Source of the DNA: Candidatus Krumholzibacteriaceae bacterium
GTDB taxonomy: Archaea; Thermoproteota; Bathyarchaeia; TCS64
Length of the DNA: 36,805 nucleotides
Assembly: GCA_035529515.1 (NCBI GenBank)
Contig: DATKWN010000033.1
Coordinates: forward strand, 1 to 36,805
Direction: 5' to 3'
Positions 8,048 to 20,838 of this stretch are shown piece by piece. Every line of letters begins with the position of its first letter. Within the stretch, counting starts at the first letter, position 1. The notes below the pieces were generated by a model. The model had not been told where the DNA came from. It was given only the letters and a program-made list of their open reading frames with translations, and made no database searches. The translations under genes and the position numbers were made by a program.

Positions 8048-8587
8048 TTATCTTCTTATCTCCAGGTTTACAGCGTTGACCATCACCACGGTGTTGAGCT
8101 TGACGTTGACGGCTTCGTCGAATGAGGCGGAGAGGTAGCTCTCGAGGAAGACGCTCCACTTGTAGCCCATCTTGTGGGTCAGGTGGAAGCTGTCCAAGCC
8201 CTCCACCGTGTTGCGGTCGCATCGGAACCAGCCGTCGTACTCGCCCAGGATCTGGGTGATGTACCAGACCACGTTCTCGTAGTTCACCCTCATCCCCCTC
8301 TGCATTAGGCTGCTCTTGACGTGTCTCCTGCCGGAGGCTTCCCCGATCTCCTGTATCTGCTCGTTGTCCAGTCTGGAGATGAACTCGTTGAACGTGTCAG
8401 AGGAAAAGGTCACCATGCCGGCGCTGTCCTGGAACCGTATGGAGGCGAGGTACCTGTTGAAGATGTTCCCTATGAGGGCGTTGACGCTGAAACCCCGGCG
8501 CTCGGCCTCCCTTATCAGCGCCTGCTCCTGCTCCTCGTCGAGCCGGATTGTTCTGGTGGCCGTCTTCCTGTGTTCCCTGCTTGTCAA
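8048..8587 (-). CDS. Ribbon-helix-helix (CopG-like) domain protein with an uncharacterised C-terminal domain; putative regulator
   Basis: The N-terminal TRTIRLDEEQEQALIREAERRGFSVNALIGNIF fits a beta-strand/helix/helix RHH pattern. TTG start. It is divergently transcribed from the first glycine-zipper paralog. Confidence 0.55.
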   Translation of the reverse strand: MTSREHRKTATRTIRLDEEQEQALIREAERRGFSVNALIGNIFNRYLASIRFQDSAGMVTFSSDTFNEFISRLDNEQIQEIGEASGRRHVKSSLMQRGMRVNYENVVWYITQILGEYDGWFRCDRNTVEGLDSFHLTHKMGYKWSVFLESYLSASFDEAVNVKLNTVVMVNAVNLEIRR

Positions 8588-8690
8588 ACTGATCTACATT
8601 GTACCACAGTGTGTTCTCTTCATATGGTTTACGCTGTGTGGACACAAAGGCGGCGCTAATGTACATTTAGTTACGGTGTGGACTGACGGC

Positions 8691-8700
8691 TTAAATAAAA
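8691..8700 (+). promoter_or_regulatory. TATA-box-like element upstream of the left-hand module
   Basis: TTAAATAAAA lies about 30-38 nt upstream of the ATG at 8729. This is compatible with an archaeal promoter giving a very short leader. Confidence 0.4.
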
Positions 8701-8728: not shown

Positions 8729-9178
8729 ATGCCCTACGTGAAAAGGTACAAAGACCTGAGCACCGACCTGAACGCCGTCTACGACGACATCAAGTACGAG
8801 CTCCAGACAGGAAAGGGGCTCAACGTGGTGAAGGAGCAGGACGGAACCGTGAACGGCGTCCCGTTCAAGAGCATCTTCGCGGTTCGAGAAAGCGTCCCCA
8901 AGGCCCTCACCGGCACCCTGAGGGAGGTAACGGTGACCATCACCGGCGTGGCGGACGACTGGCTCCTCGAGGTCCACACGGGTGCGTGGTTCAGCAACAT
9001 GATCACGCCGGGAACCGGCGGCCTAATCATCGCCGGCCCCCTCGGCGGGATAGCCGCCTCGGGGACAGGCGCCGTCTACGCCGTGAAGTTCGAGCGGGAC
9101 CTCAAGAACCGGATCAAGGAGATCGTCAAGAAGCACAGCAAGAAGCCCTACACCGAAGACAAGGTGGAGACGTTCTAG
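8729..9178 (+). CDS. Uncharacterised small protein, paralog 1 of 6 (subfamily A), with a Gly/Ala-rich glycine-zipper-like hydrophobic segment
   Basis: 149 aa. It shares MP(F/Y)V(K/R)RYKDL...TGTLREVTVTITG..DDWLLE.HTGAWF.N...PG.GG.IIAGP.G...KNRIKE.VKKHS.K.Y.E.KVETF with ORFs 9191, 14910 and 15372. Conservation across paralogs supports real coding. Confidence 0.85.
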   Translation: MPYVKRYKDLSTDLNAVYDDIKYELQTGKGLNVVKEQDGTVNGVPFKSIFAVRESVPKALTGTLREVTVTITGVADDWLLEVHTGAWFSNMITPGTGGLIIAGPLGGIAASGTGAVYAVKFERDLKNRIKEIVKKHSKKPYTEDKVETF

Positions 9179-9190
9179 GAGTGAATATGT

Positions 9191-9646
9191 GTGCCATTCG
9201 TTAGAAGATACAAGGACCTGTCTACCAACCTGGATGGCCTCTACACGGACATAGTCATGGAGCTGCAGCAGGAGAAGGACCTGGAGATAGTTAAGGAGAC
9301 AAATGGAGTCATCAACGACGTGGGGTTCCGCAGCGTGACGGCGATACGCGCCACGGTTCCACGCGCCGTGACCGGCACCCTCAGGGAGGTCAGCGTCACC
9401 GTCGCAGGGGAGCCGGATGACTGGCTGCTTGAGCTCCACACCGGGGCCTGGTTCGGCAACATGGTTCTGCCCGGAGCGGGCGGGTTCCTCATAGCCGGCC
9501 CAGTTGGCACAGCCGCAGCCGCCGGAACCACGACGCTGCTCGCCGTCACGTACGGCCGCAGGCTCAAGAACAGGATCAAGGAGCTTGTGAAGAAGCACAG
9601 CGGCAAGAAGTACACCGAGGAAAAAGTCGAGACATTCATTTCGTAG
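9191..9646 (+). CDS. Uncharacterised small protein, paralog 2 of 6 (subfamily A)
   Basis: 151 aa with a GTG start preceded by GGAGTGA. It aligns over its full length with paralogs 1, 5 and 6. Confidence 0.85.
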   Translation: MPFVRRYKDLSTNLDGLYTDIVMELQQEKDLEIVKETNGVINDVGFRSVTAIRATVPRAVTGTLREVSVTVAGEPDDWLLELHTGAWFGNMVLPGAGGFLIAGPVGTAAAAGTTTLLAVTYGRRLKNRIKELVKKHSGKKYTEEKVETFIS

Positions 9647-9657
9647 GCGGTGGAAGA

Positions 9658-9951
9658 ATGCCCGAGAAGACAAGGAAAGAACTGGAGAAGCTCGAGGAGA
9701 GAGCCGAGAAGCTCGTCAATAAGGCCAAGGAGACGCCCAAGAAGGCGGTGAAGGGCCTCAGGGGGGAGTTCAAAGGGCTAGCCCAGGACGGTAAGAAGCT
9801 AGCCAAGAGGATCGACGACTCAGCCGACAAGGCTGAGGAGAAGACCATGAAAACCTTCAAGGCCCTAGGCGACAGGCTGCAGAAGCTTCTCAAGAAGCTC
9901 AACGACTGGTCCGAGCTGGCTGATGAGCCAGACACTAACCTACTGGAGTAG
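9658..9951 (+). CDS. Lys-rich helical protein with an acidic Trp-containing tail, paralog K1
   Basis: 97 aa: MPEKTRKELEKLEERAEKLVNKAKETPKKAVK...WSELADEPDTNLLE. It is collinear with ORF 14595-14891 (MPQKIKQELDEWEEKTKNVIKKVKKVPKKVSK...WQEATEEDLIEPME). An RBS-like GGTGGAAG lies upstream. Confidence 0.75.
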   Translation: MPEKTRKELEKLEERAEKLVNKAKETPKKAVKGLRGEFKGLAQDGKKLAKRIDDSADKAEEKTMKTFKALGDRLQKLLKKLNDWSELADEPDTNLLE

Positions 9952-9993
9952 CCCTTCACCGAGGCGACGGCTCTGACAAACTTCCTCTTTATT

Positions 9994-11238
9994 TTGACAG
10001 GCGTCATCGTCTGCCTAGGATACATAGGCAACTTTCTGTTCAACAGGAAGGGGATCCCAGACAACCTAATACTGATCCTCTTCGGCATAGCCCTTGGCCC
10101 GGCTCTGCATCTCATCGATCCAACGGGGTTCATAAATATAGCGCCCATCTTCAGCGGGTTAGCGCTGCTCATCATATTATTCGACGGAGGCATGAACCTG
10201 AACCTCTACAAGGTGCTTGAGGAGAGCCCCAAAGCCATGGTGCTCGGCGTCGTGAACGTGCTGCTAAGCATGGCGTTAACAGCGGCGTTCACCAGCGTGG
10301 TGCTGGGCTGGGAGCTTCTCCACGGACTCCTCCTGGGCACCATCGTTGGAGGCACCAGCAGCAGCATCGTGCTGTCCCTCACAAAGAAGATGGATGTCCC
10401 TGAGCGCATAAACACGCTTATGAGCCTCGAGTCGGTGTTCACGGACGCCATCGTGATAGTGCTAGGCATCACCTTACTCGACCTCATCGTTAGCGCCAAG
10501 TCCATGGTGTTCAGCGAGGTGGCGAAGAACATCGCCAGCGCCTTCAGCATAGGCGTCGTCTTCGGTCTAATCTGCGGATTGGTGTGGCTCAAACTGCTGA
10601 GCGTCATCAGAGACCAGACCTACGACGACATACTGACGCTCTCGGTGACTCTTCTCTTCTACGGCCTGACGGAGGTGGTGGGAGGCAACGGCGCCATCTT
10701 CGCCCTCATATTTGGCCTCGTACTGGGAAACGGAGTCGAGATCGGCGGAATCTTCAGGATGGAAGGCATCGTAGAGATTGGCGGCATAATGAGGAAGTTT
10801 ATGAACCAGATGAGCTTCTTCATACGCACCTACTTCTTCGTCTACTTGGGCCTCATACTGTTCATAGAGAACAGTATGACCGTCCTCTACAGCGTCGCCC
10901 TGTCTCTGCTGCTGCTGGGGGGCAGGTTCATCGGCGTGATGTTCACCACCTTCAGGGACCCGGAGCTAGGCGAGTACAACAGCGTCCTAACGTCGATGAT
11001 GCCCCGAGGCCTGGCGGCGGCCATCATGGCGCAGCTAGTGGCTTCGTCTGGCATCGCCTACTCCTCGATGTTCCCGGAGCTCATAATGATAGTGATCATA
11101 GTCTCCGTGGTGATCTCAAGCGTAGGAGCTGCGTTATTGAAGAGGAGAATGAGTAGAGATAGTGTAGACGCTGGCCCCGCAACTGCTTCAACTGGGGTCA
11201 ACGTCGACAGACAGTTTTTAAATGGTAGAAAAAGTTGA
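9994..11238 (+). CDS. nhaP: CPA1 (NhaP-type) monovalent cation:proton antiporter
   Basis: 414 aa and polytopic. LFGIALGP, LILFDGGMNL and LESVFTDAIVIVLG blocks are typical of NhaP-type exchangers. No C-terminal regulatory domain. The annotated TTG start leaves a short first TM helix (see findings). Confidence 0.8.
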   Translation: MTGVIVCLGYIGNFLFNRKGIPDNLILILFGIALGPALHLIDPTGFINIAPIFSGLALLIILFDGGMNLNLYKVLEESPKAMVLGVVNVLLSMALTAAFTSVVLGWELLHGLLLGTIVGGTSSSIVLSLTKKMDVPERINTLMSLESVFTDAIVIVLGITLLDLIVSAKSMVFSEVAKNIASAFSIGVVFGLICGLVWLKLLSVIRDQTYDDILTLSVTLLFYGLTEVVGGNGAIFALIFGLVLGNGVEIGGIFRMEGIVEIGGIMRKFMNQMSFFIRTYFFVYLGLILFIENSMTVLYSVALSLLLLGGRFIGVMFTTFRDPELGEYNSVLTSMMPRGLAAAIMAQLVASSGIAYSSMFPELIMIVIIVSVVISSVGAALLKRRMSRDSVDAGPATASTGVNVDRQFLNGRKS

Positions 11239-11684
11239 CAAAGACACAGTTATTCAAGAACAAGGCCGTAAACCTCGAGACCCTTTACAAAAAGATAAAG
11301 AGAAGGCTCCTCGAGGACGACTTTAGGCTTACAAGCGAGGCCCAGACCGAGCACGTATACCATATGAGGGCCGAGAAGACAGGCGTCACAGAGATCATAA
11401 TAGGCGCGGTCAGGGACATAGAGCTCATAATAGCCGGGGAGCCAAACTCGTTCGCGGTCATCTTCACCGTCGGCGCTTGGGGCAAGAACATAGTCTCCTC
11501 CGGATCCACAGGCTACATCGTCACGTCCCTCATCGCCGGCCCCGCGGCCATCTACGGCGGCCTAGCCGCCACAACCAGCTACATCAGGGCCGTAGCCTAT
11601 GAGGGCGACTTCTGGAAACAGATCGAGAAATACATCGACCTCCAGTCCAAGGAGAGCAAGAAAAAGGAGGCAGCCAAGGACTAA
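11235..11684 (+). CDS. Uncharacterised small protein, paralog 3 of 6 (subfamily B)
   Basis: 149 aa. Its TTG start overlaps the nhaP stop (GTTGA). It shares KAV.L..LY..IK..L.(E)D.F......GA.RD(I/V)E(L/I)(I/V).AG(E/D)P(N/D).FAV(I/V)..VGAWGKN...SG.TG(Y/F)IV with ORF 12894, and the overall architecture with subfamily A. Confidence 0.8.
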   Translation: MTKTQLFKNKAVNLETLYKKIKRRLLEDDFRLTSEAQTEHVYHMRAEKTGVTEIIIGAVRDIELIIAGEPNSFAVIFTVGAWGKNIVSSGSTGYIVTSLIAGPAAIYGGLAATTSYIRAVAYEGDFWKQIEKYIDLQSKESKKKEAAKD

Positions 11685-12907
11685 TGGAGCAACAACTGCT
11701 CTTCCGCGCAGTCGTGGACATCTGTCTGCTTATAGCCCTCGCCGAGGTAGCGTCGGCTGTCAACGCCAAGCTGAGGATTCCGCGCATCATCGGCACCCTC
11801 TCCATCGGAATTCTCTTCGGCCCCAAGCTGCTGGGAGGTCTCCAGCTCGCCGGCAGATCCCTCATCGAGTTCAACGAACTGGTGTACGTTTTCGCCGAGG
11901 TCGGCGCCGTCCTCCTGTTATTCAGCGCAGGGCTCCACATGACCTTCGGCGAACTGAAGAGGTCAGGCGCCATCTCGTTCACGGTGGCGCTAGCCGGTGT
12001 CATCGTGCCCTACGTCATGGGCTTCGCGGCTACCGTGCTTCTCGGCTACGACTGGTACATCGCGATGATCATAGGCGGCTCCATGGCGGCCACAAGCATA
12101 GCGATCTCGGTGAAGAGCCTGGACGAAATGGGCCGGATGAGCTCTACCGAGGCCAAGATAATACTTGGCGCCGCCATAATCGACGACGTGCTGGCGCTGT
12201 CATTGGCGAGCGTAATATTCACCATCGTCGTCAGCCACGCACAGATATCGACGCTGGACATCATCCTTTCGCTGAGCAAGACCCTAGGTGTATGGCTCGT
12301 GCTCACCGCCGTCAGCGCCCGCGTGGTTCCCATGCTGCTGGACTACGTGATTAGGCTCAAGGTAGGCGTCGGGCACCTCATAGAGGCTTTCTCCATTCTT
12401 GTGTGTTTCAGCTACGCGGCGTTCAGCGGCACACTTGGGCTGAGCCCCCTCGTCGGGGCGTTCATAGCTGGCATGGCCATCGCCGACAGCCTGTACTTGG
12501 ATCTGATCAAGGACTTCTTGGAGAAGGTGGAGGTGATCTTCGTGCCCCTGTTCTTCGTGGTGATGGGCGCCAGCGTGGACCCGCAATCGATCCTGCATGG
12601 CAACTTCCTGCTGATCCTCATCCTTTGCCTCGTGGGTGTGGTCAGTAAACTGATCGGCTGTGGGCTGCCTGCTGCCTATCTGCTCAAGGATCGTACTTGC
12701 GGTATACGGATAGGGTACGGCATGATCTCCCGGGGCGAGATAGGCTTGGTCATCGCAAGCATGGGTGTGACCTACGGGATCCTGCCGGGGGAGGTGTACA
12801 CGGCGCTCATCCTCATGATATTCGTGACTAGCCTCCTGCCGCCTTTCCTGCTGAAGCGGTCGTACTCGATGGAGGCTAAGACGCTGGAGGTGGTTGCACG
12901 TGACTAG
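11684..12907 (+). CDS. CPA2 (Kef/NapA-type) monovalent cation:proton antiporter
   Basis: 407 aa and polytopic. It has LLLFSAGLHM and the CPA2 DD motif in GAAIIDDVLALSL. Its ATG overlaps the stop of paralog 3 (TAATG). No KTN/RCK domain. Confidence 0.8.
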   Translation: MEQQLLFRAVVDICLLIALAEVASAVNAKLRIPRIIGTLSIGILFGPKLLGGLQLAGRSLIEFNELVYVFAEVGAVLLLFSAGLHMTFGELKRSGAISFTVALAGVIVPYVMGFAATVLLGYDWYIAMIIGGSMAATSIAISVKSLDEMGRMSSTEAKIILGAAIIDDVLALSLASVIFTIVVSHAQISTLDIILSLSKTLGVWLVLTAVSARVVPMLLDYVIRLKVGVGHLIEAFSILVCFSYAAFSGTLGLSPLVGAFIAGMAIADSLYLDLIKDFLEKVEVIFVPLFFVVMGASVDPQSILHGNFLLILILCLVGVVSKLIGCGLPAAYLLKDRTCGIRIGYGMISRGEIGLVIASMGVTYGILPGEVYTALILMIFVTSLLPPFLLKRSYSMEAKTLEVVARD

Positions 12908-13334
12908 GCTGATGAAAGTAGAGGGAAAAGCTGTCGATCTGAGCAGGCTGTACGCGAATATAAAGAAGATGCTGGAGGACGAGAAGTTCAGGATCGTCAA
13001 AGACGACGTCACCGAGAACGCCTACCATATACGAGCCCTCAAGACGCAAATCACACGGATCATCGTCGGGGCTACCAGGGACGTAGAGATCGTCGTCGCC
13101 GGGGATCCGGACAATTTCGCCGTGGTGCTCATCGTCGGGGCCTGGGGCAAGAATCTGGCCATCTCGGGGGCGACGGGGTTCATAGTCGCCAGCACGATTG
13201 CGGCGCCTGCGGTCGTCGTCGGCACCGTGGCGGCAGCGGGCAGCTACCTGACAGCGATAAAGTTCGAGGAGCAGCTCTACAAACGGATAGAAGACGAGAT
13301 CAGGAAACAGAAGAAGCAGAGCACGCGTGCATGA
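12894..13334 (+). CDS. Uncharacterised small protein, paralog 4 of 6 (subfamily B)
   Basis: 146 aa from GTG 12894, which overlaps the CPA2 gene. ATG 12912 (MKVEGKAVDLSRLY), 4 nt after the CPA2 stop, is the more likely start by comparison with paralog 3. Confidence 0.8.
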   Translation: MHVTRLMKVEGKAVDLSRLYANIKKMLEDEKFRIVKDDVTENAYHIRALKTQITRIIVGATRDVEIVVAGDPDNFAVVLIVGAWGKNLAISGATGFIVASTIAAPAVVVGTVAAAGSYLTAIKFEEQLYKRIEDEIRKQKKQSTRA

Positions 13335-13396
13335 TCGATCCATCGCCTTGGCTCGATCCATTCTTAGGCTCGGCGTCTCCGCGTCTGCACACGGCT

Positions 13397-14458
13397 CTAT
13401 AGCCACTTTCTTCTCTTGAAGAAGAGGATCATCACCGCGGTTACTGTGATCATTATGAGCCACAGGGCGGGGTAGGCGTTTCTCCACTCCAGCTCGGGCA
13501 TGTACCTGAAGTTCATGCCGTAGATGCCGGCTAGGAAGGTGAGGGGTATGAATATGGTGCCTATTATGGTGAGCACCTGCATTATCTGGTTCATCTTGTT
13601 GCTGATGCTGCTCAGGTAGATGTCCAGCATCCCGCTGAGGAGGTCGCGGTAGGTCTCGATGGCGTCTATCACCTGTATGGTGTGGTCGTAGACGTCGCGG
13701 ATGTAGGGCCTGGTGTTTTCCCGGAACTGTCTGCTGCCTAGCTTGTCCAGGCGGCTGATGACCTCGCGGAGGGGCCAGACGCTCTTGCGGACGGCTATCA
13801 TCTTGCGCTTCATGTTGTAGATGTCGTGGAGGGTCTCGATGCGGGGGTCTACGACCAGCTCGTCCTCGATCTCCTCGACGCGGTCGCCGATCTTCTCCAG
13901 CACGGTGAAGTAGCCGTCCACCACCATGTCTATGAGGGTGTAGGCGAGGTAGTCGGCCCCCATCTTCCTGATGATCCCCTTGTTGTCCCTGATCCTCTGC
14001 CTCACGGCGTCGAAGCAGTCGCCGGGCGCCTCCTGGAAGGACACTATGTAGTGGTCGCCGAGGATTAGGCTGATCTGCTCTATCTCTATCTCCTCGGTCT
14101 CCTGGTTGTAGGTGATCATCTTGAGGACGAAGAAGACGTGGTCGTCGTACTCGTCGAGCTTGGGGCGTTGCAGTGTGTTGACGATGTCCTCCTGTATGAG
14201 GGGGTGGAACCCCATGTGTGTGCCTATCTCGACGATGTCCAGGGCCTTGAGGCCGTCGACATTTACCCACGTGATGTCTGGGCTGCGGAGGTCGTCGATT
14301 ATCTCGGAGGGCTCCTCTACGGTTCTCTCATCGTAGCTTGTCTCGTTGTAGGAGATCACGGTTATGTGTGCGGGGAGGGGCTCCTCTTCCCCGACGTAGA
14401 CGGGGGTTCCGGGGGGCAGCCCCGACTTCCTGGATCTCCTGAGGAGAATGCCTGCCAT
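13397..14458 (-). CDS. corA: CorA-family Mg2+/Co2+ transporter
   Basis: 353 aa with a cytoplasmic N-domain and two C-terminal TM helices carrying the YGMNF (GMN) signature. Confidence 0.9.
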   Translation of the reverse strand: MAGILLRRSRKSGLPPGTPVYVGEEEPLPAHITVISYNETSYDERTVEEPSEIIDDLRSPDITWVNVDGLKALDIVEIGTHMGFHPLIQEDIVNTLQRPKLDEYDDHVFFVLKMITYNQETEEIEIEQISLILGDHYIVSFQEAPGDCFDAVRQRIRDNKGIIRKMGADYLAYTLIDMVVDGYFTVLEKIGDRVEEIEDELVVDPRIETLHDIYNMKRKMIAVRKSVWPLREVISRLDKLGSRQFRENTRPYIRDVYDHTIQVIDAIETYRDLLSGMLDIYLSSISNKMNQIMQVLTIIGTIFIPLTFLAGIYGMNFRYMPELEWRNAYPALWLIMITVTAVMILFFKRRKWL

Positions 14459-14575
14459 GATTAATCACTAAATGATCAGGTATTATCCGTTGATAATTGT
14501 TGTCTCATGACTGGACACCACTTCAGAGGATATGATTTACAGCGAATCAAATTGAAGATTGGTTGAGCATTCGAT

Positions 14576-14590
14576 TAATAAAAAAGGTTG
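14576..14590 (-). terminator. Oligo-T tract immediately after the K2 stop
   Basis: The minus strand reads CCTTTTTTATTAAT directly downstream of the TAA at 14595-14597. Archaeal terminators are typically T-runs. Confidence 0.4.
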
Positions 14591-14594
14591 GTTG

Positions 14595-14891
14595 TTATTC
14601 CATTGGTTCTATGAGGTCTTCCTCTGTCGCTTCTTGCCAGCCTTTACGCATGGCTTGGTAGGCTTTCTTGGTTCTCTCCCTGAGCTGCTTCAAAGTCTCC
14701 TTGGACTTGTCTTCCACCTGAACCATTCGCTTATCGATCTTCTTGACGAGGCTCTTCCCAGCTTTGGCGAGGCTCTTCGCCTCGTCTCGAACCTCTTTTG
14801 ACACCTTCTTGGGCACCTTTTTGACTTTCTTGATGACGTTCTTGGTCTTCTCTTCCCATTCATCCAACTCTTGTTTTATCTTCTGAGGCAT
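14595..14891 (-). CDS. Lys-rich helical protein with an acidic Trp-containing tail, paralog K2
   Basis: 98 aa, collinear with K1 (9658-9951). GGAGCAGTGA lies upstream of the ATG. Confidence 0.75.
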   Translation of the reverse strand: MPQKIKQELDEWEEKTKNVIKKVKKVPKKVSKEVRDEAKSLAKAGKSLVKKIDKRMVQVEDKSKETLKQLRERTKKAYQAMRKGWQEATEEDLIEPME

Positions 14892-14909
14892 TTTTCACTG
14901 CTCCAAGTT

Positions 14910-15365
14910 TTATGAGACGAAGGTCTCTATTTTATTTTCCGCATAGGTCTTTCCGCTGTGTTTCTTGACCATGCCCTTGATCTTGTTCTTCAGCTTCCTA
15001 CCATAGTCTGCTGCAAACACAGCCGAGGCCCCTGCGCCCGCTGCGGCGCCGAAGGGACCTGCAATCAAGAAGCCCCCGGTTCCAGGTAGTAGCATGTTTC
15101 CAAACCATGCTCCGGTGTGGAGCTCAAGCAGCCAGTCGTCTGGTACGCCGGCGATCGTGACTGTTACTTCTCGGAGTGTTCCAGTGATGGCTCTAGGCAC
15201 GGTTGCACGCACAGCCGTGATGGACTTGAATGGAACGTTGTTGATGACTCCGTTGTTCTCCACTGCGATGGTGAGGTCTTTGTCCTGCTGCAGCTCCTTC
15301 TTTGTGTCTTCGTAGAGACCATCAAGGTTGGTACCGAGGTCCTTATACCTTCGTATGAACGGTAT
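14910..15365 (-). CDS. Uncharacterised small protein, paralog 5 of 6 (subfamily A); canonical start codon missing
   Basis: The ORF track starts at GTG 15263 (MENNGV...). Homology to paralogs 1, 2 and 6 continues upstream in the same frame as IPFIRRYKDLGTNLDGLYEDTKKELQQDKDLTIAV, back to an ATA codon at 15363-15365, where the paralogs have their initiator. An out-of-frame ATG sits at 15367-15369. Confidence 0.7.
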   Translation of the reverse strand: MPFIRRYKDLGTNLDGLYEDTKKELQQDKDLTIAVENNGVINNVPFKSITAVRATVPRAITGTLREVTVTIAGVPDDWLLELHTGAWFGNMLLPGTGGFLIAGPFGAAAGAGASAVFAADYGRKLKNKIKGMVKKHSGKTYAENKIETFVS

Positions 15366-15371
15366 CCATTC

Positions 15372-15827
15372 TCACCCTATGAAGGTCTCTACCTTCTCGT
15401 CGCTATATTTTTCCTTGCTGTGCTTCTTGACGAGATCCTTGATCTTAGCCTTAAGCTTCCTTCCATACTGGGCAGCCATGAGTCCCGCCGTACCTGCTAC
15501 AGCCAACCCTGCGAGTGGTCCAACTAGGATTGAGGCTCCCAGGTAAGGCATAGCGAGGTTGCTGAACCACTCACCCGTGTGCATCTCGATGAGGTAGTCG
15601 TTTTTCTCCCCAGTGATGGTCACCGTGACCTCCCTCAGGGTGCCTGTAACCATCTTGGGTATCGAGGCACGGTTCGCGGTTACACTCATGAAGGGAACCC
15701 CGTTTACGTCTCCTTTAAGCTCCTTGGCGACGTTGAGTTCTTTCTCGTTCTGAAGCTCCTTTACGATGTCCTTGTATAGAACGTCAAGGTCTGTGTTCAT
15801 GTCCTTGTATCTTCTAACAAAAGGCAT
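15372..15827 (-). CDS. Uncharacterised small protein, paralog 6 of 6 (subfamily A)
   Basis: 151 aa: MPFVRRYKDMNTDLDVLYKDIVKELQ...TGTLREVTVTITGEKNDYLIEMHTGEWFSN...KVETFIG. Full-length alignment with paralogs 1, 2 and 5. Confidence 0.85.
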   Translation of the reverse strand: MPFVRRYKDMNTDLDVLYKDIVKELQNEKELNVAKELKGDVNGVPFMSVTANRASIPKMVTGTLREVTVTITGEKNDYLIEMHTGEWFSNLAMPYLGASILVGPLAGLAVAGTAGLMAAQYGRKLKAKIKDLVKKHSKEKYSDEKVETFIG

Positions 15828-15935: not shown

Positions 15936-16355
15936 TTACTCTTTGAGCCGGTAGCTGTGGCCCTCGGCCTTCTCCACGATGCCCTCCTCGACGAGCTCCA
16001 GCACCTTTTTACGCACCGTCACGCGGCTCCCCGTGCCTCGCTCCCGTTGCACTTCCCTGGTTAATGCGCTGATGTTCTGCGGCCCCTTTAACGCCAGCAC
16101 GTTGAGGATCACTCGGCTCACGTCGTCCCTGTGCTCCTCGTCTCGGGACAGGTGCCTGCGGACGCTCACCAGCCTCTGGATCAGCTTCAGCGGCTCGCTG
16201 TACAGTGCCGCCCCGACTCGGAGGTCCCCCATCACCTGAGCCAGCTCCGGGTACTGCCTGCTCTCCGTCAGCACCGCCTCCAGGTAGTCGAGGCGACGCA
16301 TCATGTACTCAAGCTTCTCGTTGACCTCCTTGAGGTCCCGCTCCAGGCCCGACAA
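15936..16355 (-). CDS. Putative transcription regulator: N-terminal coiled coil plus C-terminal winged helix-turn-helix
   Basis: 139 aa. The C-terminal ILNVLALKGPQNISALTREVQRERGTGSRVTVRKKVLELVEEGIVEKAEGHSYRL looks like an ArsR/MarR-type wHTH. It has the same orientation as paralog 6 and lies 108 nt upstream of it. Confidence 0.55.
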   Translation of the reverse strand: MSGLERDLKEVNEKLEYMMRRLDYLEAVLTESRQYPELAQVMGDLRVGAALYSEPLKLIQRLVSVRRHLSRDEEHRDDVSRVILNVLALKGPQNISALTREVQRERGTGSRVTVRKKVLELVEEGIVEKAEGHSYRLKE

Positions 16356-17980: not shown

Positions 17981-19525
17981 CTACCGCTCCAGTATGAACT
18001 CCCTGCTCGGCGCCGTGGGCTTACCTATCCACTTCTTCAGCATGGTCTCACCCACCTTTGTGCCAACCTCCATGGGGTGCTGAGTCTCAAGCATTCTGAC
18101 CGCGTTCTCCAGCTTGGTGGCTGACTCGCTGTAGATCCTGAACATGGGCTTCCCCTCCTCGACCTTGTCCCCGGTCTTGGCGAAAAGCTTCAAGCCGGCG
18201 CCCTTGCTGCTCGGTGTGCCGGCGGACCTCGCGATCCGGACCAGGTCCCTGCTGTTGAACCACAGGACCCTGCCGTCCTTGGGCGCGGGCACGTCGTGGG
18301 TGTACTTGCCGGGCGCCAGATCCTCGATGGTCACATCGGGGTCGCCCCCCTGAGCCTCGATGATCTCCCTCATCTTCTCCAGAGCCTTGCCGTTGGCTAT
18401 GAGGCCGTGGGCCATCTGCTTACCGTTCTCGTGGCCCACCATGTCGAAGAGTATGCCCGCGAGGTTCGTGGCCTTGTCCACCAGATCGTGGGGGCCTCTG
18501 CCCATCAGGGTCTCCATGGCCTCCCTCGCCTCCAGTATGGGGCCTATGTTGTACCCTATGGGCTGGCTGCCCTCGGTCACGGCGCACTCGATGTGCATGT
18601 CGAAGCGGCTGCCGAGCTCTATGAAGTCGCTTGCCAGCTGCTCCGCCTCGCCCAGCGTATTGATCTTGGCGTCGATGCCCACCGGGATGTCTATAACCAC
18701 GTGGGTGCTGCCCATGGCCTTCTTCTTGCTCATGATGCTGGGCAGCAGCAGCGGGTCGATGCTGAGGGGGTACTCGATCCTGATGAACAGGTCGTCGGCG
18801 GGCGCCAGGTCGATGCTCCCGCCCCAGACTATGCAGGCGCCGACCCTCTCCACTATCTCCCTGATGCTGTCGAAGGACAGGTTGACCGGGGCCAACGCCT
18901 CCATGCGGTCAGCTGTTCCGGCGGGGCTGGTAATCGCCCTGCTGCTGCTCTTCGGTATGGTGTACCCCACTGAAGCGACTATAGGAGCGACTATGAGCGT
19001 CGTCTTATCGCCTGGGACGCCGCCGATGCTGTGCTTGTCAAGTATGGGGCTGCGCCCGAAGTCGATGGTCTTGCCGCTCCTTATCATGCTGCGGCTGAGC
19101 GCCTCAACCTCTTCCATGCTGACGCCGTGTATGTGCAACGCGGTGACGAAGGCCGCGAGCTCTATGTCACTCAGGTGCCGCTCCACCGTGTCCCCGACGA
19201 TCCTCGCTATCTTCCATGGCGTCAGACGCTGTCCGTTGACCTTCTCCCTGATGTGGTCGAGGCTCTCCGGGCGCCTGGCAGGCTCGACGCTTACTACTCC
19301 GCCCTTTGATACGCCGAGTCTATGGGTCACCTCCCTGTATAGACCCAGATCGCCGGGGACGTCCTCGGTGCTTATGTTCAGGATGCATATTACATGATTC
19401 TTCTTGTACCTCAGGAAGATGCGGTCGCTGCTTATGACGCCCAGGTTAGCTGCGTCCTGCTTGTTCATGACCACGATTAGGGGTCCGCCTGCCTCGATCT
19501 CAAGGGGGACTGCCTTCAGCTGCAT
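17981..19525 (-). CDS. deoA: AMP phosphorylase (thymidine phosphorylase family, archaeal DeoA type)
   Basis: Thymidine-phosphorylase-like core (DKHSIGGVPGDKTTLIV, SSRAITSPAGTADRME) with an extra N-terminal domain. I place the start at ATG 19525 (MQLKAVPLEIEAGGP...), which is preceded by GAGGAG, rather than at the track start 19594. It is adjacent to RuBisCO and R15P isomerase. Confidence 0.85.
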   Translation of the reverse strand: MQLKAVPLEIEAGGPLIVVMNKQDAANLGVISSDRIFLRYKKNHVICILNISTEDVPGDLGLYREVTHRLGVSKGGVVSVEPARRPESLDHIREKVNGQRLTPWKIARIVGDTVERHLSDIELAAFVTALHIHGVSMEEVEALSRSMIRSGKTIDFGRSPILDKHSIGGVPGDKTTLIVAPIVASVGYTIPKSSSRAITSPAGTADRMEALAPVNLSFDSIREIVERVGACIVWGGSIDLAPADDLFIRIEYPLSIDPLLLPSIMSKKKAMGSTHVVIDIPVGIDAKINTLGEAEQLASDFIELGSRFDMHIECAVTEGSQPIGYNIGPILEAREAMETLMGRGPHDLVDKATNLAGILFDMVGHENGKQMAHGLIANGKALEKMREIIEAQGGDPDVTIEDLAPGKYTHDVPAPKDGRVLWFNSRDLVRIARSAGTPSSKGAGLKLFAKTGDKVEEGKPMFRIYSESATKLENAVRMLETQHPMEVGTKVGETMLKKWIGKPTAPSREFILER

Positions 19526-19608
19526 ACGGCTACTCCTCAGAACCAAGGAATATTTGTTGAGTAAAGGTAAAAACATACTGGAACAATAACGCATATGGAG
19601 GACCTCAA

Positions 19609-20835
19609 ATGCGTTACATCGACTTCGTAGACCTCAAGTACGAGCCAAAGGAGACGGACCTCGTCTGCGAGTTCCACGTCGAGCCTCTGAACCAGCCGCT
19701 GGAAGTCATTGCGGGCGGGGTGGCTGCCGAGAGCAGCGTGGGAACCTGGACGGAGCTATCCACCGAGAAGCCCTACATGCAGAAACACGCCGCCAAGGTG
19801 TATAGCATCGAGGGAAACGAGGTCAAGATAGCGTACCCGATAGAGCTCTTCGAGCCGGGGAACATGCCTAACATACTTAGCAGCGTCGCGGGCAACGTCT
19901 TCGGGCTGGAGGACATAGAGAACCTGAGGCTCAACGACATCCACTTCCCCAAGGAGCTCGTGAAGAGCTTCCAGGGGCCGAGGTACGGCGTACAAGGCGT
20001 CAGGGATATAACCGGCATAAGGGACAGGCCGCTCGTGGGCACCATAATCAAGCCCAAGCTGGGCCTCGTCACGGCGGACCACGCCCAGGTGGCCTACGAG
20101 GCCTGGAGCGGCGGCTGCGACGTGGTGAAGGACGACGAGAACCTGAGCAGCCAGAAGTTCAACCCCTTCGAGGACCGCGTTGTGCAGACCCTCGAGGCCA
20201 GGGATAAGGCCGAGTCCGAGACCGGCGAGAGGAAGGTGTACCTCGTCAACGTCACCGCCGAGATGGAGGAGATGAAGCGCAGGGCCCAGTACGTGGAGGA
20301 CCACGGGGGCAGGTACATGATGATCGACATCCTCACCACGGGATGGAGCAGCCTCCAGGCCATGAGGGACGAGGGATTCAACCTCGTCATCCACGCCCAC
20401 AGGGCGGGCCACGCAGCCTTCACCAGGAGCCGCGTTCATGGCATCAGCATGGTGGTCCTGGTGAGGGTGGCGCGGCTGCTGGGCGTAGACCAGCTCCACG
20501 TGGGCACAGCCGTGGGCAAGATGGCGGAGACCGAGGAGGAGGTCAGAGCCAACATAGCGGCTTGCAAGGAGCCCATGCACGGCGTACGCCCTGTGCTGCC
20601 CGTGGCCTCAGGCGGCCTCCACCCAGGGATGGTGCCAAGGCTTGTAGAGATATTCGGCGACGACACCGTCATCCAGGCAGGAGGAGGCATACATGGGCAC
20701 CCCGACGGAACCGTGAAGGGGGCCACAGCCATGAGGCAGGCAGTAGACGCGGCCACTCGGGGCATAAGGCTGGAGGACTACGCGGAGGACCACGTGGAGC
20801 TTTCAAGGGCCCTAAAGAAGTGGCCCGTGGTCTAG
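19609..20835 (+). CDS. rbcL: Type III ribulose-1,5-bisphosphate carboxylase/oxygenase large subunit
   Basis: 408 aa. All canonical catalytic blocks are visible: AAESSVGTWT, GNVFG, GTIIKPKLGL, VKDDENL (carbamyl-Lys, Asp, Glu), HAHRAG, LHVGTAVGKM, ASGGLHPG and GGGIHGHP. A GGAGG RBS lies 10 nt upstream. Confidence 0.92.
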   Translation: MRYIDFVDLKYEPKETDLVCEFHVEPLNQPLEVIAGGVAAESSVGTWTELSTEKPYMQKHAAKVYSIEGNEVKIAYPIELFEPGNMPNILSSVAGNVFGLEDIENLRLNDIHFPKELVKSFQGPRYGVQGVRDITGIRDRPLVGTIIKPKLGLVTADHAQVAYEAWSGGCDVVKDDENLSSQKFNPFEDRVVQTLEARDKAESETGERKVYLVNVTAEMEEMKRRAQYVEDHGGRYMMIDILTTGWSSLQAMRDEGFNLVIHAHRAGHAAFTRSRVHGISMVVLVRVARLLGVDQLHVGTAVGKMAETEEEVRANIAACKEPMHGVRPVLPVASGGLHPGMVPRLVEIFGDDTVIQAGGGIHGHPDGTVKGATAMRQAVDAATRGIRLEDYAEDHVELSRALKKWPVV

Positions 20836-20838
20836 ACG

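What the first reader, a model, noticed from the sequence alone, without database searches (positions are those of the whole stretch)
8729..15827. Cluster of six paralogous glycine-zipper-like small proteins and two Lys-rich helical proteins wrapped around three cation transporters: candidate undescribed ion-homeostasis or stress accessory system
Eight of the eleven genes in this 7.1 kb belong to two small-protein families I cannot assign to any characterised family. Family GZ has six members of ~146-151 aa (8729, 9191, 11235, 12894, 14910, 15372). All share one architecture. First comes an N-terminal ~25-residue helix-like block (..YKDL...L..LY.DI...L). Next is a beta-rich ~60-residue core ending in (T)LREV.V.I.G..D.....(H)TGAW(F/G).N. 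A ~35-residue Gly/Ala/small-residue hydrophobic stretch follows (for example PGTGGLIIAGPLGGIAASGTGAVYAV), which looks like a glycine-zipper membrane hairpin. The proteins end in a basic amphipathic tail. Family K has two members, described separately. The remaining three genes are a CPA1 antiporter, a CPA2 antiporter and CorA, all cation transporters. The same order, GZ-GZ-K followed by cation transporter(s), occurs twice in mirror orientation: plus strand 8729-13334 and minus strand 15827-13397. A predicted DNA-binding protein sits at each outer edge (RHH protein 8048-8587, wHTH protein 15936-16355). Repeated, orientation-independent linkage inside one locus argues for a functional association rather than chance. 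My hypothesis, which is inference only, is that these are small membrane-inserted auxiliary or regulatory subunits, or stress proteins, acting with cation/proton exchange and Mg2+ uptake.
Basis: partly seen in the sequence, partly recalled or inferred. Interest (0 to 1): 0.85.

Follow-up and report, generated by a model that had tools for sequence, protein, structure and literature searches.

The report
Unnamed archaeal small proteins beside cation transporters
A Bathyarchaeia genome region packs six copies of an unnamed small, probably membrane-attached protein and two lysine-rich helical proteins around two cation/proton antiporters and a magnesium channel; the linkage recurs in related genomes and suggests new transporter partners or stress proteins, but nothing here shows what they do.

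Summary
The 7.1 kb carries six paralogues (GZ-A: 8729, 9191, 14910, 15372; GZ-B: 11235, 12894), two K proteins, two Na_H_Exchanger antiporters and CorA, in two mirrored arrays. One caveat is that the 14910 copy has no canonical start codon.

No library tested covers GZ or K: Pfam, NCBIfam, PADLOC and PDB sequences. A profile search finds 231 GZ cluster representatives. The few that carry names are archaeal (Bathyarchaeota, Nitrosopumilus, Nitrosotenuis).

AlphaFold gives a confident small alpha/beta domain, then a low-confidence 29-35 residue Gly/Ala-rich stretch centred on a conserved GP, then an amphipathic helix. Hydrophobicity is borderline for a membrane segment.

In Bathyarchaeia, GZ genes recur next to CPA, CorA, MgtE or MscS genes in several different arrangements. 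GZ-B always abuts a CPA gene with overlapping stop and start codons, and these antiporters lack the cytoplasmic regulatory domains of their characterised relatives. Relatives from what look like Nitrososphaeria instead sit next to HSP20, CBS and CDC48 genes.

Best reading: these are membrane-associated stress or accessory proteins. GZ-B is probably a dedicated antiporter partner. GZ-A and K are probably co-regulated stress proteins. It is a new family, a new variant of a known kind, of moderate interest.

The parts
8048..8587 (-). 179-aa putative RHH-type regulator ('RHH179'), divergent from the plus-strand GZ array
   Evidence: ORF. RHH is supported only by weak matches (RHH_4 E = 0.078, NikA-like E = 0.12). 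Orthologues sit divergently upstream of GZ arrays in L001, L010, L013, L014, L016, L021, L026, L027 and L036, and in L016, L026 and L036 they form an RHH179-CorA pair.
8600..8612 (+). TGTACCACAGTGT, candidate operator in the divergent RHH179/GZ promoter
   Evidence: Only match in the window (0.08 expected by chance). Related TGTAACACAATGT motifs occur in the same intergenic position in L010, L013, L014, L016 and L036. The operator role is inferred.
8678..8699 (+). GTGGACTGACGGCTTAAATAAA, conserved promoter element with a TATA-like box about 30 nt upstream of the first GZ gene
   Evidence: Unique in the window, none expected by chance. Conserved in L010, L013, L014, L016 and L036. The promoter role is inferred.
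8729..9178 (+). GZ-A1 (149 aa)
9191..9646 (+). GZ-A2 (151 aa, GTG start)
   Evidence: AlphaFold model.
9658..9951 (+). K protein (97 aa, Lys/Glu-rich amphipathic helices)
9994..11238 (+). CPA1-like (NhaP2/CvrA-like) cation/proton antiporter, membrane domain only
   Evidence: PF00999 E = 1e-35. Best NCBIfam match is the K+/H+ antiporter PRK05326, aligned to positions 12-380 of 499, below its cut-off.
11235..11684 (+). GZ-B1 (149 aa). Its start overlaps the stop of the upstream CPA gene by 4 nt and its stop overlaps the start of the downstream CPA gene by 1 nt.
   Evidence: AlphaFold model. The same position is kept in L013, L015, L016 and L036-L038.
11684..12907 (+). CPA2-like (Kef-type membrane domain) cation/proton antiporter without a KTN/RCK domain
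   Evidence: PF00999 E = 3e-54. TIGR00932 E = 3e-43; aligned to KefC positions 10-386 of 623.
12894..13334 (+). GZ-B2 (146 aa, TTG start overlapping the CPA2 stop by 14 nt)
13397..14458 (-). CorA Mg2+/Co2+ channel
   Evidence: PF01544 E = 9e-78. TIGR00383 scores 329 bits against a cut-off of 200.75.
14595..14891 (-). K protein (98 aa). An oligo-T run and a 136-nt gap follow before CorA.
14910..15362 (-). GZ-A2b, a full-length homologue without a canonical in-frame start codon (canonical ORF only from GTG 15263, 117 aa)
15372..15827 (-). GZ-A3 (151 aa)
15936..16355 (-). 139-aa putative wHTH regulator, first gene of the minus-strand array
   Evidence: Weak wHTH matches (HVO_A0114 E = 7e-4; Csa3/CasR wHTH E = 6e-4). 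The order wHTH-GZ-K-CorA is conserved in L020.

Best explanation
The region is a Bathyarchaeia cation-homeostasis and stress gene island built around an unnamed protein family (GZ) whose few named members are all archaeal.

Architecture. A GZ protein has three parts. The first is a cytoplasmic alpha/beta domain of about 85 residues (one helix on a five-stranded antiparallel sheet). The second is a 29-35 residue uncharged Gly/Ala/Ser/Thr-rich stretch with a conserved central Gly-Pro. The third is a basic amphipathic helix that packs back on the sheet.

Inferred topology. The hydrophobic stretch is a short re-entrant hairpin or an in-plane anchor, not a membrane-spanning helix. Both ends of the protein therefore stay in the cytoplasm.

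Inferred roles.
- GZ-B is made in fixed proportion with the two antiporters through translational coupling. It docks on them and supplies, as a separate protein, the cytoplasmic regulatory or stabilising module that these membrane-domain-only CPA1-like and CPA2-like proteins lack. It would work like the separate ancillary subunits of bacterial CPA2 systems, but it is not related to them.
- GZ-A proteins are encoded as ordered pairs (A1 or A3, then A2), which suggests hetero-oligomers. Together with the apolipoprotein-like K protein they would be stress-induced membrane-associated proteins. They are co-regulated with the transporters by the divergent RHH protein and by the wHTH protein. They would either tune CorA, MgtE, CPA or MscS activity or protect the membrane during ionic, osmotic or heat stress.

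Shown: gene content, paralogy, conserved synteny, translational coupling, absence from described families, the predicted fold and the domain fusions.
Inferred: membrane attachment, topology, binding to transporters and stress induction.
For: Family and novelty:
- No match above threshold in Pfam, NCBIfam, PADLOC or PDB sequences.
- 231 cluster representatives among 1.84 billion proteins.
- The only source names are 'hypothetical', 'uncharacterized membrane protein' or 'zinc ribbon domain-containing', and the only organism names are Bathyarchaeota, Nitrosopumilus and Nitrosotenuis.

Fold:
- Two independent AlphaFold models (GZ-A2 and GZ-B1) give the same order of elements: strand, helix, four strands, low-confidence loop, long helix. 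The structured parts reach pLDDT 84-95.

Topology:
- Relatives carry cytoplasmic domains on both sides of the GZ module: TIR or caspase plus TPR at the N-terminus, and DnaJ, zinc ribbon or SHOCT at the C-terminus.
- The GZ-A model pairs the C-terminal strand with the N-terminal sheet.

Linkage in Bathyarchaeia:
- RHH | GZ-A(1-3 copies)-K-CPA-GZ-B-CPA-GZ-B
- RHH | GZ-A-K-CPA
- GZ-A x3-CPA
- wHTH-GZ-A-K-CorA
- CorA-RHH | GZ-A...
- MgtE/p122 | GZ-A-GZ-A
- GZ-A followed by MscS

GZ-B coupling and the antiporters:
- GZ-B overlaps the neighbouring CPA genes at stop and start in the window. It keeps the same abutting position, with overlapping or touching stop/start coordinates, in the called genes of L036-L038.
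- It stays beside the second CPA gene even where the first has shrunk to a 63-77 aa remnant.
- The antiporters cover only the membrane part of CvrA-type and KefC-type models.
- Subtype order is conserved: A3 or A1, then A2; B1 after the first CPA gene and B2 after the second.

Stress theme elsewhere:
- An HSP20-GZ gene pair occurs in three different neighbourhoods, together with CBS, CDC48, AhpC, Usp and MscS genes.

Regulation:
- A promoter and candidate operator motif is conserved and unique in the window.
Against: - There is no direct evidence of membrane insertion. Summed 19-residue insertion energies are +2.4 to +5.2 kcal/mol, against -2.3 to +2.7 for the real membrane helices of the neighbouring transporters. 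Kyte-Doolittle maxima of 1.4-2.1 straddle the usual 1.6 threshold.
- A few relatives replace the hydrophobic stretch with polar sequence.
- AlphaFold confidence in that stretch is below 50.
- Every transporter-linked locus is from Bathyarchaeia, so conserved order may partly reflect shared descent.
- In the MgtE loci the transporter is not in the same transcription unit as the GZ genes. In the window, an oligo-T run and a 136-nt gap separate CorA from K.
- GZ-A-like and SHOCT-type relatives outside Bathyarchaeia show no CPA, CorA or MgtE neighbour.
- Many CPA antiporters work without any regulatory domain (established knowledge, not tested here), so a missing domain need not be supplied by another protein.
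- No complex modelling could be run.
Confidence: 0.45

Rival explanations
1. GZ-A, GZ-B and K are general membrane-stress protectants, comparable in role to PspA/Vipp1, YtxH, LEA-like or lipid-associated small heat-shock systems. They share regulators and operons with ion transporters because all respond to the same ionic, osmotic or heat stress. They do not bind or regulate the transporters.
For: - GZ-A-like genes from what look like Nitrososphaeria form a pair with HSP20 in three different neighbourhoods, and lie among CBS, CDC48, AhpC and DsbA genes.
- A Usp gene lies next to the GZ pair in L003, L007 and L018.
- K shows apolipoprotein, ApoLp-III, PspA, YtxH and sll1863-like amphipathic-helix composition, all below threshold.
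- The C-terminal part of GZ gives sub-threshold YtxH matches, and 3 of the 120 listed GZ-A relatives carry a precomputed PF12732 hit.
- GZ-A genes are not always in the same transcription unit as the transporter.
Against: - GZ-B is never seen away from a CPA gene in the loci sampled. It is interleaved with overlapping stop and start codons, which is typical of subunits made in fixed ratio.
- K lies directly upstream of a transporter gene in seven of the eight K-bearing arrangements; in L036 a 77-aa ORF and GZ-B intervene.
- The transporter partner changes (CPA, CorA, MgtE, MscS) while the link to ion transport persists.
Confidence: 0.3
2. GZ proteins are soluble helix-grip-like proteins that bind a ligand or lipid, or act as co-chaperones. 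The Gly/Ala-rich stretch is a flexible or oligomerisation loop rather than a membrane anchor.
For: - Foldseek matches, all weak, are to helix-grip or Mog1/PsbP-like alpha+beta sandwiches such as Flpp3, the BamC N-domain, DcrB, EagT6, Mog1, Bet v 1-like and START proteins.
- Hydropathy is borderline.
- Some relatives have a polar loop instead.
- HSP20 and CDC48 are neighbours in some relatives.
Against: - 44 of 67 full-length family members exceed the Kyte-Doolittle threshold of 1.6.
- One source annotates a relative as a membrane protein.
- A 29-35 residue stretch without a single charged or amide residue is conserved in all six window copies.
- Fold matches have TM-scores of only 0.3-0.56 and E-values of 6e-4 or worse.
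Confidence: 0.12
3. GZ proteins are membrane-perturbing effectors (holin-like or toxin-like pore formers, or defence effectors). The transporter neighbourhood is incidental.
For: - Distant relatives fuse the GZ module to TIR or caspase plus TPR domains, an architecture seen in conflict systems.
- Small-residue-rich hydrophobic segments occur in some pore formers (background knowledge).
- One truncated relative, P0154, carries a precomputed holin-family hit, PF04020.
Against: - PADLOC matches are all weak: one 11.9-bit hit for GZ-A1 and coiled-coil-type hits for K.
- There is no adjacent immunity or antitoxin gene, nuclease or NTPase in the window.
- Six paralogues sit in a housekeeping chromosomal context with conserved operon positions next to transporters.
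- The TIR and caspase fusions are 3 of 146 representatives.
Confidence: 0.06
4. The linkage has no functional meaning. A lineage-specific expansion of a small gene family happens to sit in a region that is syntenic across closely related Bathyarchaeia.
For: - All transporter-linked loci come from one class, many share more than 60% protein identity, and several loci are near-duplicates of one another.
Against: - The arrangement has been reshuffled repeatedly while the link is kept. Four unrelated transporter or channel families are involved, RHH-CorA is fused into one unit in some genomes, CorA follows K in others, and GZ-B is retained when the first CPA gene decays.
- Gene overlaps indicate co-translation.
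Confidence: 0.07

Closest known systems
Separate ancillary subunits of bacterial CPA2 antiporters: KefF/KefG with KefC/KefB; KhtS/KhtT with KhtU; AmhM with AmhT
   Same: They are small proteins encoded next to, and co-expressed with, a cation/proton antiporter, and they act from the cytoplasmic side on its activity. KefF as an ancillary subunit is described in PMC2920069 and PMC10224563, found. KhtT and KhtU are mentioned in PMC10117811. The rest is from my own knowledge. GZ-B is likewise interleaved with CPA genes whose products lack fused regulatory domains.
   Different: There is no sequence or fold relationship. KefF/KefG are flavodoxin-like oxidoreductases and KhtT and AmhM are RCK/KTN-type proteins, and no such Pfam match exists for GZ. 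GZ carries a hydrophobic Gly/Ala stretch and a helix-grip-like domain. No interaction has been shown.
YtxH-like proteins (PF12732) and GlsB/YeaQ/YmgE-type small stress membrane proteins
   Same: They are small proteins with a small-residue-rich hydrophobic segment followed by amphipathic helices, and they are associated with general stress (background knowledge). The GZ C-terminal part gives YtxH matches at E = 0.003-0.1.
   Different: The scores of 13.6-18.5 bits are far below the 37.5-bit cut-off. GZ has an N-terminal alpha/beta domain of about 85 residues that those families lack. No Pfam glycine-zipper or transglycosylase-associated family matches.
Helix-grip and Mog1/PsbP-like alpha+beta sandwiches (Flpp3, BamC N-domain, DcrB, DUF1795/EagT6, Mog1)
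   Same: An antiparallel sheet is covered by helices. Several of these proteins are membrane-associated, or bind hydrophobic segments or lipids. They are the best Foldseek matches.
   Different: The matches are weak: E = 6e-4 to 0.1, TM-score 0.3-0.56, sequence identity 6-17%. Strand number and connectivity were not verified. None has the GP-centred Gly/Ala insertion.
Exchangeable apolipoproteins, apolipophorin III, PspA/IM30 and the sll1863 family (compared with the K protein)
   Same: They are Lys/Glu-rich amphipathic helices of similar length and composition. Six of nine K orthologues give sub-threshold ApoLp-III or Apolipoprotein matches, two give sll1863_fam and two give PspA.
   Different: All matches are below the curated cut-offs, for example 18.3 bits against 35 for sll1863_fam and 18.3 against 33.9 for PspA. 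Many unrelated coiled-coil families match equally well, so this is a compositional resemblance and not demonstrated homology.

Membership tests
YtxH-like protein (PF12732) | Score at or above the Pfam gathering threshold (37.5 bits) | tested here: not met
   Best score 18.5 bits (E = 0.003) for the 14910 protein; 13.6-14.5 bits for others; no match for the two GZ-B proteins. Only 3 of the 120 listed GZ-A relatives carry a precomputed PF12732 hit.
Canonical glycine-zipper membrane proteins (GxxxGxxxG; Pfam Gly-zipper families) | A conserved run of small residues at i, i+4, i+8 within a membrane helix, or a match to a Gly-zipper Pfam model | tested here: not met
   No Gly-zipper Pfam family appears even at E <= 1. 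The conserved small residues in GZ-A are G97, G103-P104, A109, G112 and A118, spaced 6-6-3-6. Only A109 and A118 are invariant across GZ-A and GZ-B, with P104 and G112 nearly so. Individual copies do contain (G/A)xxx(G/A) runs.
Integral membrane protein (transmembrane helix or helical hairpin) | A hydrophobic segment predicted to insert into the membrane | tested here: inconclusive
   The uncharged stretch is 29-35 aa. Kyte-Doolittle 19-residue maxima are 1.39-2.07 (usual threshold 1.6). Summed Hessa-scale energies are +2.4 to +5.2 kcal/mol, against -2.3 to +2.7 for membrane helices of the neighbouring CPA and CorA proteins. pLDDT is below 50 there. No dedicated topology predictor was available.
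CPA ancillary subunits KefF/KefG (flavodoxin-like) and KhtT/AmhM (RCK/KTN) | Flavodoxin-like or TrkA_N/RCK domain | tested here: not met
   No such Pfam or NCBIfam match for any GZ or K protein at E <= 1. The predicted fold is an alpha+beta sandwich, not a Rossmann-like fold.
Helix-grip / Mog1-PsbP-like fold | Significant structural superposition with matching topology | tested here: inconclusive
   For GZ-A the best match is E = 9.5e-3 with TM-score about 0.4. For GZ-B the best match is Flpp3, E = 5.7e-4, TM-score 0.41 normalised to the query and 0.56 to the target. Topology was not checked residue by residue.
sll1863 family, PspA/IM30 and apolipoprotein families (K protein) | Score at or above the curated cut-off | tested here: not met
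   sll1863_fam 18.3 bits against 35; PspA_IM30 18.3 against 33.9; Apolipoprotein 17.7-18 against 90; ApoLp-III 19.5 against 36.3.
Known anti-phage defence proteins (PADLOC-DB) | Match to a defence-system model | tested here: not met
   Only weak matches: GZ-A1 to PD-Lambda-5_B at E = 0.037 (11.9 bits), and coiled-coil-type matches for K with best E = 7e-4.
Cation/proton antiporter superfamily (PF00999) for 9994-11238 and 11684-12907 | Score above the Pfam gathering threshold across the whole membrane domain | tested here: met
   123.5 and 184.8 bits against a cut-off of 26.2, covering positions 2-373 and 9-374 of 375. The CPA1-like versus CPA2-like split is suggested by the best NCBIfam matches, which are below the equivalog cut-offs.
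CorA Mg2+/Co2+ transporter for 13397-14458 | Score above the curated cut-offs | tested here: met
   PF01544 261.9 bits against 27. TIGR00383 329.3 bits against 200.75.
Ribbon-helix-helix regulators (8048-8587) | Match to an RHH model above threshold | tested here: inconclusive
   RHH_4 13.5 bits against 25; NikA-like 12.9 against 27. The N-terminal sequence TIRLDEEQEQALIREAERRGFSVNALI has the strand-helix pattern of RHH proteins, which is my reading and not a test.

The most novel reading that the evidence does not exclude
GZ proteins are a previously unrecognised class of monotopic (re-entrant hairpin) regulatory subunits of archaeal ion transporters. GZ-B would be an obligatory partner that gates or stabilises the regulatory-domain-less CPA1-like and CPA2-like antiporters. 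GZ-A hetero-oligomers, together with K, would couple CorA, MgtE or MscS activity to a cytoplasmic or membrane stress signal. This would be a transporter-control mechanism specific to archaea with tetraether-lipid membranes.
Probability: 0.2. Interest if true: 0.7.

Novelty: new variant of a known kind. Interest (0 to 1): 0.55.

Why it matters
Bathyarchaeia are abundant, uncultured sediment archaea, and how they control ions and pH is unknown. If GZ-B is a true antiporter subunit, it would be a new type of accessory protein for the universal CPA superfamily. It would also explain how antiporters without fused regulatory domains are controlled in these archaea.

The wider family has 231 cluster representatives and includes Nitrososphaeria (ammonia oxidisers), where it pairs with HSP20. 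It would then become a named, testable stress or membrane module instead of a set of 'hypothetical proteins'.

If the proteins are only co-regulated stress proteins, the finding is still useful for annotation, but it is ordinary.

Tried and rejected
- Pfam, NCBIfam and PADLOC scans of every GZ and K protein, and Pfam scans of 146 distant representatives, found no family for the GZ core. Only accessory domains matched.
- PDB sequence searches with profiles of GZ (A3, A6) and K (A2) returned noise only.
- Foldseek against the PDB with both models gave only weak helix-grip or Mog1/PsbP-like matches, so I did not file GZ under any fold family.
- The first attempt to scan genome contigs with the mixed GZ-A plus GZ-B alignment failed because it had no conserved stretch. 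The GZ-A-only alignment worked but retrieves only close relatives, all Bathyarchaeia, so it cannot speak to the wider taxonomic range.
- I looked for a shared operator between the plus-strand and minus-strand array promoters. They share no k-mer of 8 or more bases and neither has a perfect palindrome. The conserved motif belongs to the RHH179 promoter only.
- Literature searches for glycine zipper/SHOCT/zinc ribbon, for CPA ancillary proteins and for Bathyarchaeia ion transport found nothing that describes this family. One search failed on syntax.
- The cluster look-up for accession numbers and organism names added almost nothing.
- The defence-effector reading prompted by the TIR and caspase fusions was considered. 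It was set aside for the window genes because of their context and the lack of meaningful PADLOC matches.
- No tRNA genes or signs of a mobile element were found around the locus.

Full report
**1. What is in the sequence**

The plus-strand array has seven genes packed tightly together:
- GZ-A1, 8729-9178
- GZ-A2, 9191-9646 (12-nt gap)
- K, 9658-9951 (11-nt gap)
- an antiporter, 9994-11238
- GZ-B1, 11235-11684 (4-nt overlap with the gene before it)
- a second antiporter, 11684-12907 (1-nt overlap)
- GZ-B2, 12894-13334 (14-nt overlap)

The minus-strand array reads:
- wHTH, 16355-15936
- GZ-A3, 15827-15372
- GZ-A2b, 15362-14910
- K, 14891-14595
- an oligo-T run and a 136-nt gap
- CorA, 14458-13397

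The two arrays converge, 62 nt apart. The RHH-like gene (8587-8048) is divergent from the plus-strand array.

Paralogy is beyond doubt. One copy, 14910-15362, has its conserved N-terminus PFIRRYKDL but no in-frame ATG, GTG or TTG. The DNA reads ATG-GATA-CCG, which puts the ATG one base out of frame. This copy may be decaying, and its counterpart is missing from the otherwise matching wHTH-GZ-K-CorA array of the closest relative, L020.

The flanks are ordinary chromosomal genes. They include triose-phosphate isomerase, a DNA glycosylase, a CoA-transferase, an M42 peptidase, the archaeal AMP-phosphorylase/RuBisCO/R15P-isomerase trio and TFB. No tRNA genes were found.

**2. What the small proteins are**

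No GZ protein reaches threshold in Pfam, NCBIfam or PADLOC, and profile searches of PDB sequences find nothing. The only recurring hint is a sub-threshold YtxH match on the hydrophobic-plus-amphipathic C-terminal part.

Close homologues of both subfamilies are all 'hypothetical protein' from Bathyarchaeota assemblies.

A profile of both subfamilies, searched against 1.84 billion cluster representatives, finds 231 relatives at E <= 1e-3 and 77 at E <= 1e-10. They share three elements:
- the core G..R.i.v.I.G.p..F.v....G.WGkN
- an uncharged Gly/Ala-rich stretch
- a helix of the form FE..lW..I

A scan of 146 of these representatives shows that no Pfam model covers the core. Only accessory domains match:
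- zinc ribbons (19 members)
- SHOCT (14)
- TPR
- DnaJ (1)
- caspase (2, N-terminal to the GZ module)

One search adds one TIR fusion, also N-terminal to the GZ module.

A second word-indexed search, seeded with distant members, returns proteins named only for Nitrosopumilus and Nitrosotenuis. One of them is annotated 'uncharacterized membrane protein'.

The K family has nine distinct orthologues, all in GZ loci. It gives only sub-threshold, composition-driven matches, most consistently to apolipophorin III and apolipoprotein.

**3. Structure and topology**

AlphaFold models of GZ-A2 (20-sequence alignment) and GZ-B1 (43-sequence alignment) agree. Both show a strand, a helix and four antiparallel strands at pLDDT 84-95. 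A segment with pLDDT below 50 follows, covering the Gly/Ala stretch (residues 89-114 and 83-111). A long amphipathic helix at pLDDT 85-93 comes last. In GZ-A a terminal strand (the VETF motif) pairs back onto the sheet.

Foldseek finds only weak similarity to helix-grip and Mog1/PsbP-like sandwiches: Flpp3, the BamC N-domain, DcrB, EagT6 and Mog1. E-values are 6e-4 or worse and TM-scores are 0.3-0.56. I treat this as a description, not a classification.

The uncharged stretch is 29-35 residues long, 52-62% Gly/Ala/Ser/Thr, with a conserved central Gly-Pro. Its hydrophobicity is borderline. Kyte-Doolittle maxima are 1.4-2.1. Summed insertion energies are +2.4 to +5.2 kcal/mol, against -2.3 to +2.7 for true membrane helices of the neighbouring transporters.

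Relatives carry cytoplasmic domains on both sides of the module, and the model joins the two termini. Given that, the most economical reading is a short re-entrant hairpin or interfacial anchor with both ends in the cytoplasm. This is an inference. A few relatives have a polar loop instead, so the soluble fold can exist without the hydrophobic stretch.

**4. Gene neighbourhoods**

I mapped GZ, K, CPA, CorA, MgtE, RHH179, wHTH and Usp homologues onto 27 related loci and read the precomputed annotations. This gave the following Bathyarchaeia arrangements:
- RHH | A-A-K-CPA-B-CPA-B (window, L013)
- CorA-RHH | A-A-A-K-(CPA or a 63-77 aa remnant)-B-CPA-B (L015, L016, L036, L037)
- RHH | A-K-CPA (L001)
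- RHH | A-A-A-CPA, with CorA 6 kb away and a fourth GZ next to a second RHH paralogue (L010)
- wHTH-A-K-CorA (L020)
- MgtE / a 122-aa gene on the opposite strand / A-A, then Usp in some loci (L003-L009, L024, L025)
- CPA-B-CPA-B (L038)
- A followed 122 nt later by an MscS-family channel (L019)
- one locus (L023) with no transporter nearby

Subtype order is conserved: A3 or A1, then A2; B1 after the first antiporter and B2 after the second.

Outside Bathyarchaeia the picture changes. GZ-A-like genes of 150-155 aa lie directly downstream of HSP20 in two different neighbourhoods (L030-L033 and L041). In a third (L039) they are divergent from an HSP20 gene, among AhpC, DsbA, CDC48 and a second HSP20. 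CBS-domain genes are nearby in L030 and L034. A Nitrosopumilus member lies 1.5 kb from an MscS gene. A SHOCT-type member has no informative neighbours. None of these six contexts has a CPA, CorA or MgtE gene within 4-5 kb.

**5. The transporters**

The first antiporter is most similar to NhaP2/CvrA-type K+/H+ antiporters, aligned to positions 12-380 of a 499-position model. The second is most similar to CPA2/Kef-type proteins, aligned to positions 10-386 of the 623-position KefC model. Both are below the equivalog cut-offs.

Both proteins consist of the membrane domain only. They lack the TrkA_C or KTN/RCK domains that regulate their characterised relatives.

**6. Regulation**

The RHH179/GZ intergenic region carries two elements that are unique in the window: TGTACCACAGTGT (8600-8612) and GTGGACTGACGGCTTAAATAAA (8678-8699). 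The second ends in a TATA-like box about 30 nt before the first GZ gene. Both recur at the same place in loci whose proteins are only 60-80% identical. The minus-strand array does not share them.

**7. Interpretation**

The evidence supports a functional link between GZ genes and ion transport or ionic stress in Bathyarchaeia. The link is strongest for GZ-B, which is translationally coupled to antiporters that lack regulatory domains. My preferred model is that GZ-B works like the separate ancillary subunits of bacterial CPA2 systems (KefF/KefG, KhtT), without being related to them.

For GZ-A and K, the HSP20, Usp, CBS and MscS contexts point to stress-induced, membrane-associated proteins. 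Whether they touch the transporters is open. The rival reading, that they are co-regulated protectants only, is nearly as likely.

A toxin or defence role is unlikely for these genes, and so is chance synteny.

**8. Novelty and score**

The protein family is undescribed in every library available here. The kind of thing it most plausibly is, an accessory or stress protein encoded with ion transporters, is known. A specialist would find it a solid lead rather than a surprise, so I score interest at about 0.55.
- The association does not extend across the whole family.
- Membrane insertion is unproven.
- No mechanism has been demonstrated.

Noticed in passing
window 15355-15372 (minus strand), 5' end of the GZ copy at 14910-15362: The conserved N-terminus PFIRRYKDL is preceded by ATG-GATA-CCG, so the ATG is one base out of frame. 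There is no in-frame ATG, GTG or TTG before GTG 15263. This may be a pseudogene, a rare start codon or an assembly error. The closest relative, L020, has the same array without this gene.
   Followed up: partly
window 17981-21747: Three adjacent genes encode an AMP-phosphorylase-like protein (Glycos_transf_3 plus PYNP_C), a RuBisCO large subunit and an IF-2B-family protein (ribose-1,5-bisphosphate isomerase type). This looks like the archaeal AMP/nucleotide-salvage pathway that uses form III RuBisCO. TFB follows at 21936-22913.
   Followed up: no
window 8600-8612 and 8678-8699; the same positions in L010, L013, L014, L016 and L036: There are conserved motifs in the divergent RHH179/GZ promoter. 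One is a TGTAMCACARTGT element, present twice in tandem in L010. The other is GTGGACT..C.G.TTAARTAAA, which ends in a TATA-like box. Both are unique in the window. They are absent upstream of the minus-strand array.
   Followed up: partly
window 14459-14594: An oligo-T run lies directly after the K stop codon, followed by a 136-nt AT-rich gap before CorA. CorA may therefore be transcribed separately from GZ-GZ-K. In L016, L026 and L036, CorA instead follows RHH179 on the other side of the array.
   Followed up: partly
L030-L033 (4281-5453), L041 (3266-4453), L039 (3487-5468): GZ-A-like genes of 150-155 aa, from what look like Nitrososphaeria, form a conserved pair with a 222-223 aa HSP20 gene in three different neighbourhoods. 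L039 also has AhpC, DsbA, CDC48 and a second HSP20.
   Followed up: partly
proteins P0181, P0220, P0295, P0241 and P0196 (distant GZ relatives): The GZ module is fused C-terminally to TIR plus TPR (P0181) or caspase plus TPR (P0220, P0295). It is fused N-terminally to a DnaJ domain (P0241). In P0196 it follows a polytopic membrane region. The organisms are unknown. The TIR and caspase architectures resemble conflict-system proteins.
   Followed up: partly
L016 9237-9467; L036 5766-5999; L037 588-779: In some relatives the first antiporter gene has shrunk to a 63-77 aa remnant, while GZ-B1, the second antiporter and GZ-B2 are kept.
   Followed up: no
L003-L009, L024, L025 (for example L003 8874-9242, minus strand): A conserved 122-aa protein with no Pfam match always lies between MgtE and the GZ-A pair, on the opposite strand. 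It occupies the position that RHH179 holds in the other loci, so it may be another regulator.
   Followed up: no
L010 7489-8590: A fourth, longer GZ copy (172 aa, minus strand) sits next to a second RHH179 paralogue (181 aa). This repeats the regulator-GZ pairing within one locus.
   Followed up: no
proteins P0214 (2968 aa) and P0231 (1790 aa): Two very large proteins match the GZ profile in 15 and 8 separate stretches, limited to part of the beta-sheet region. This is probably a repeat-domain or compositional artefact. I excluded them from the analysis.
   Followed up: no
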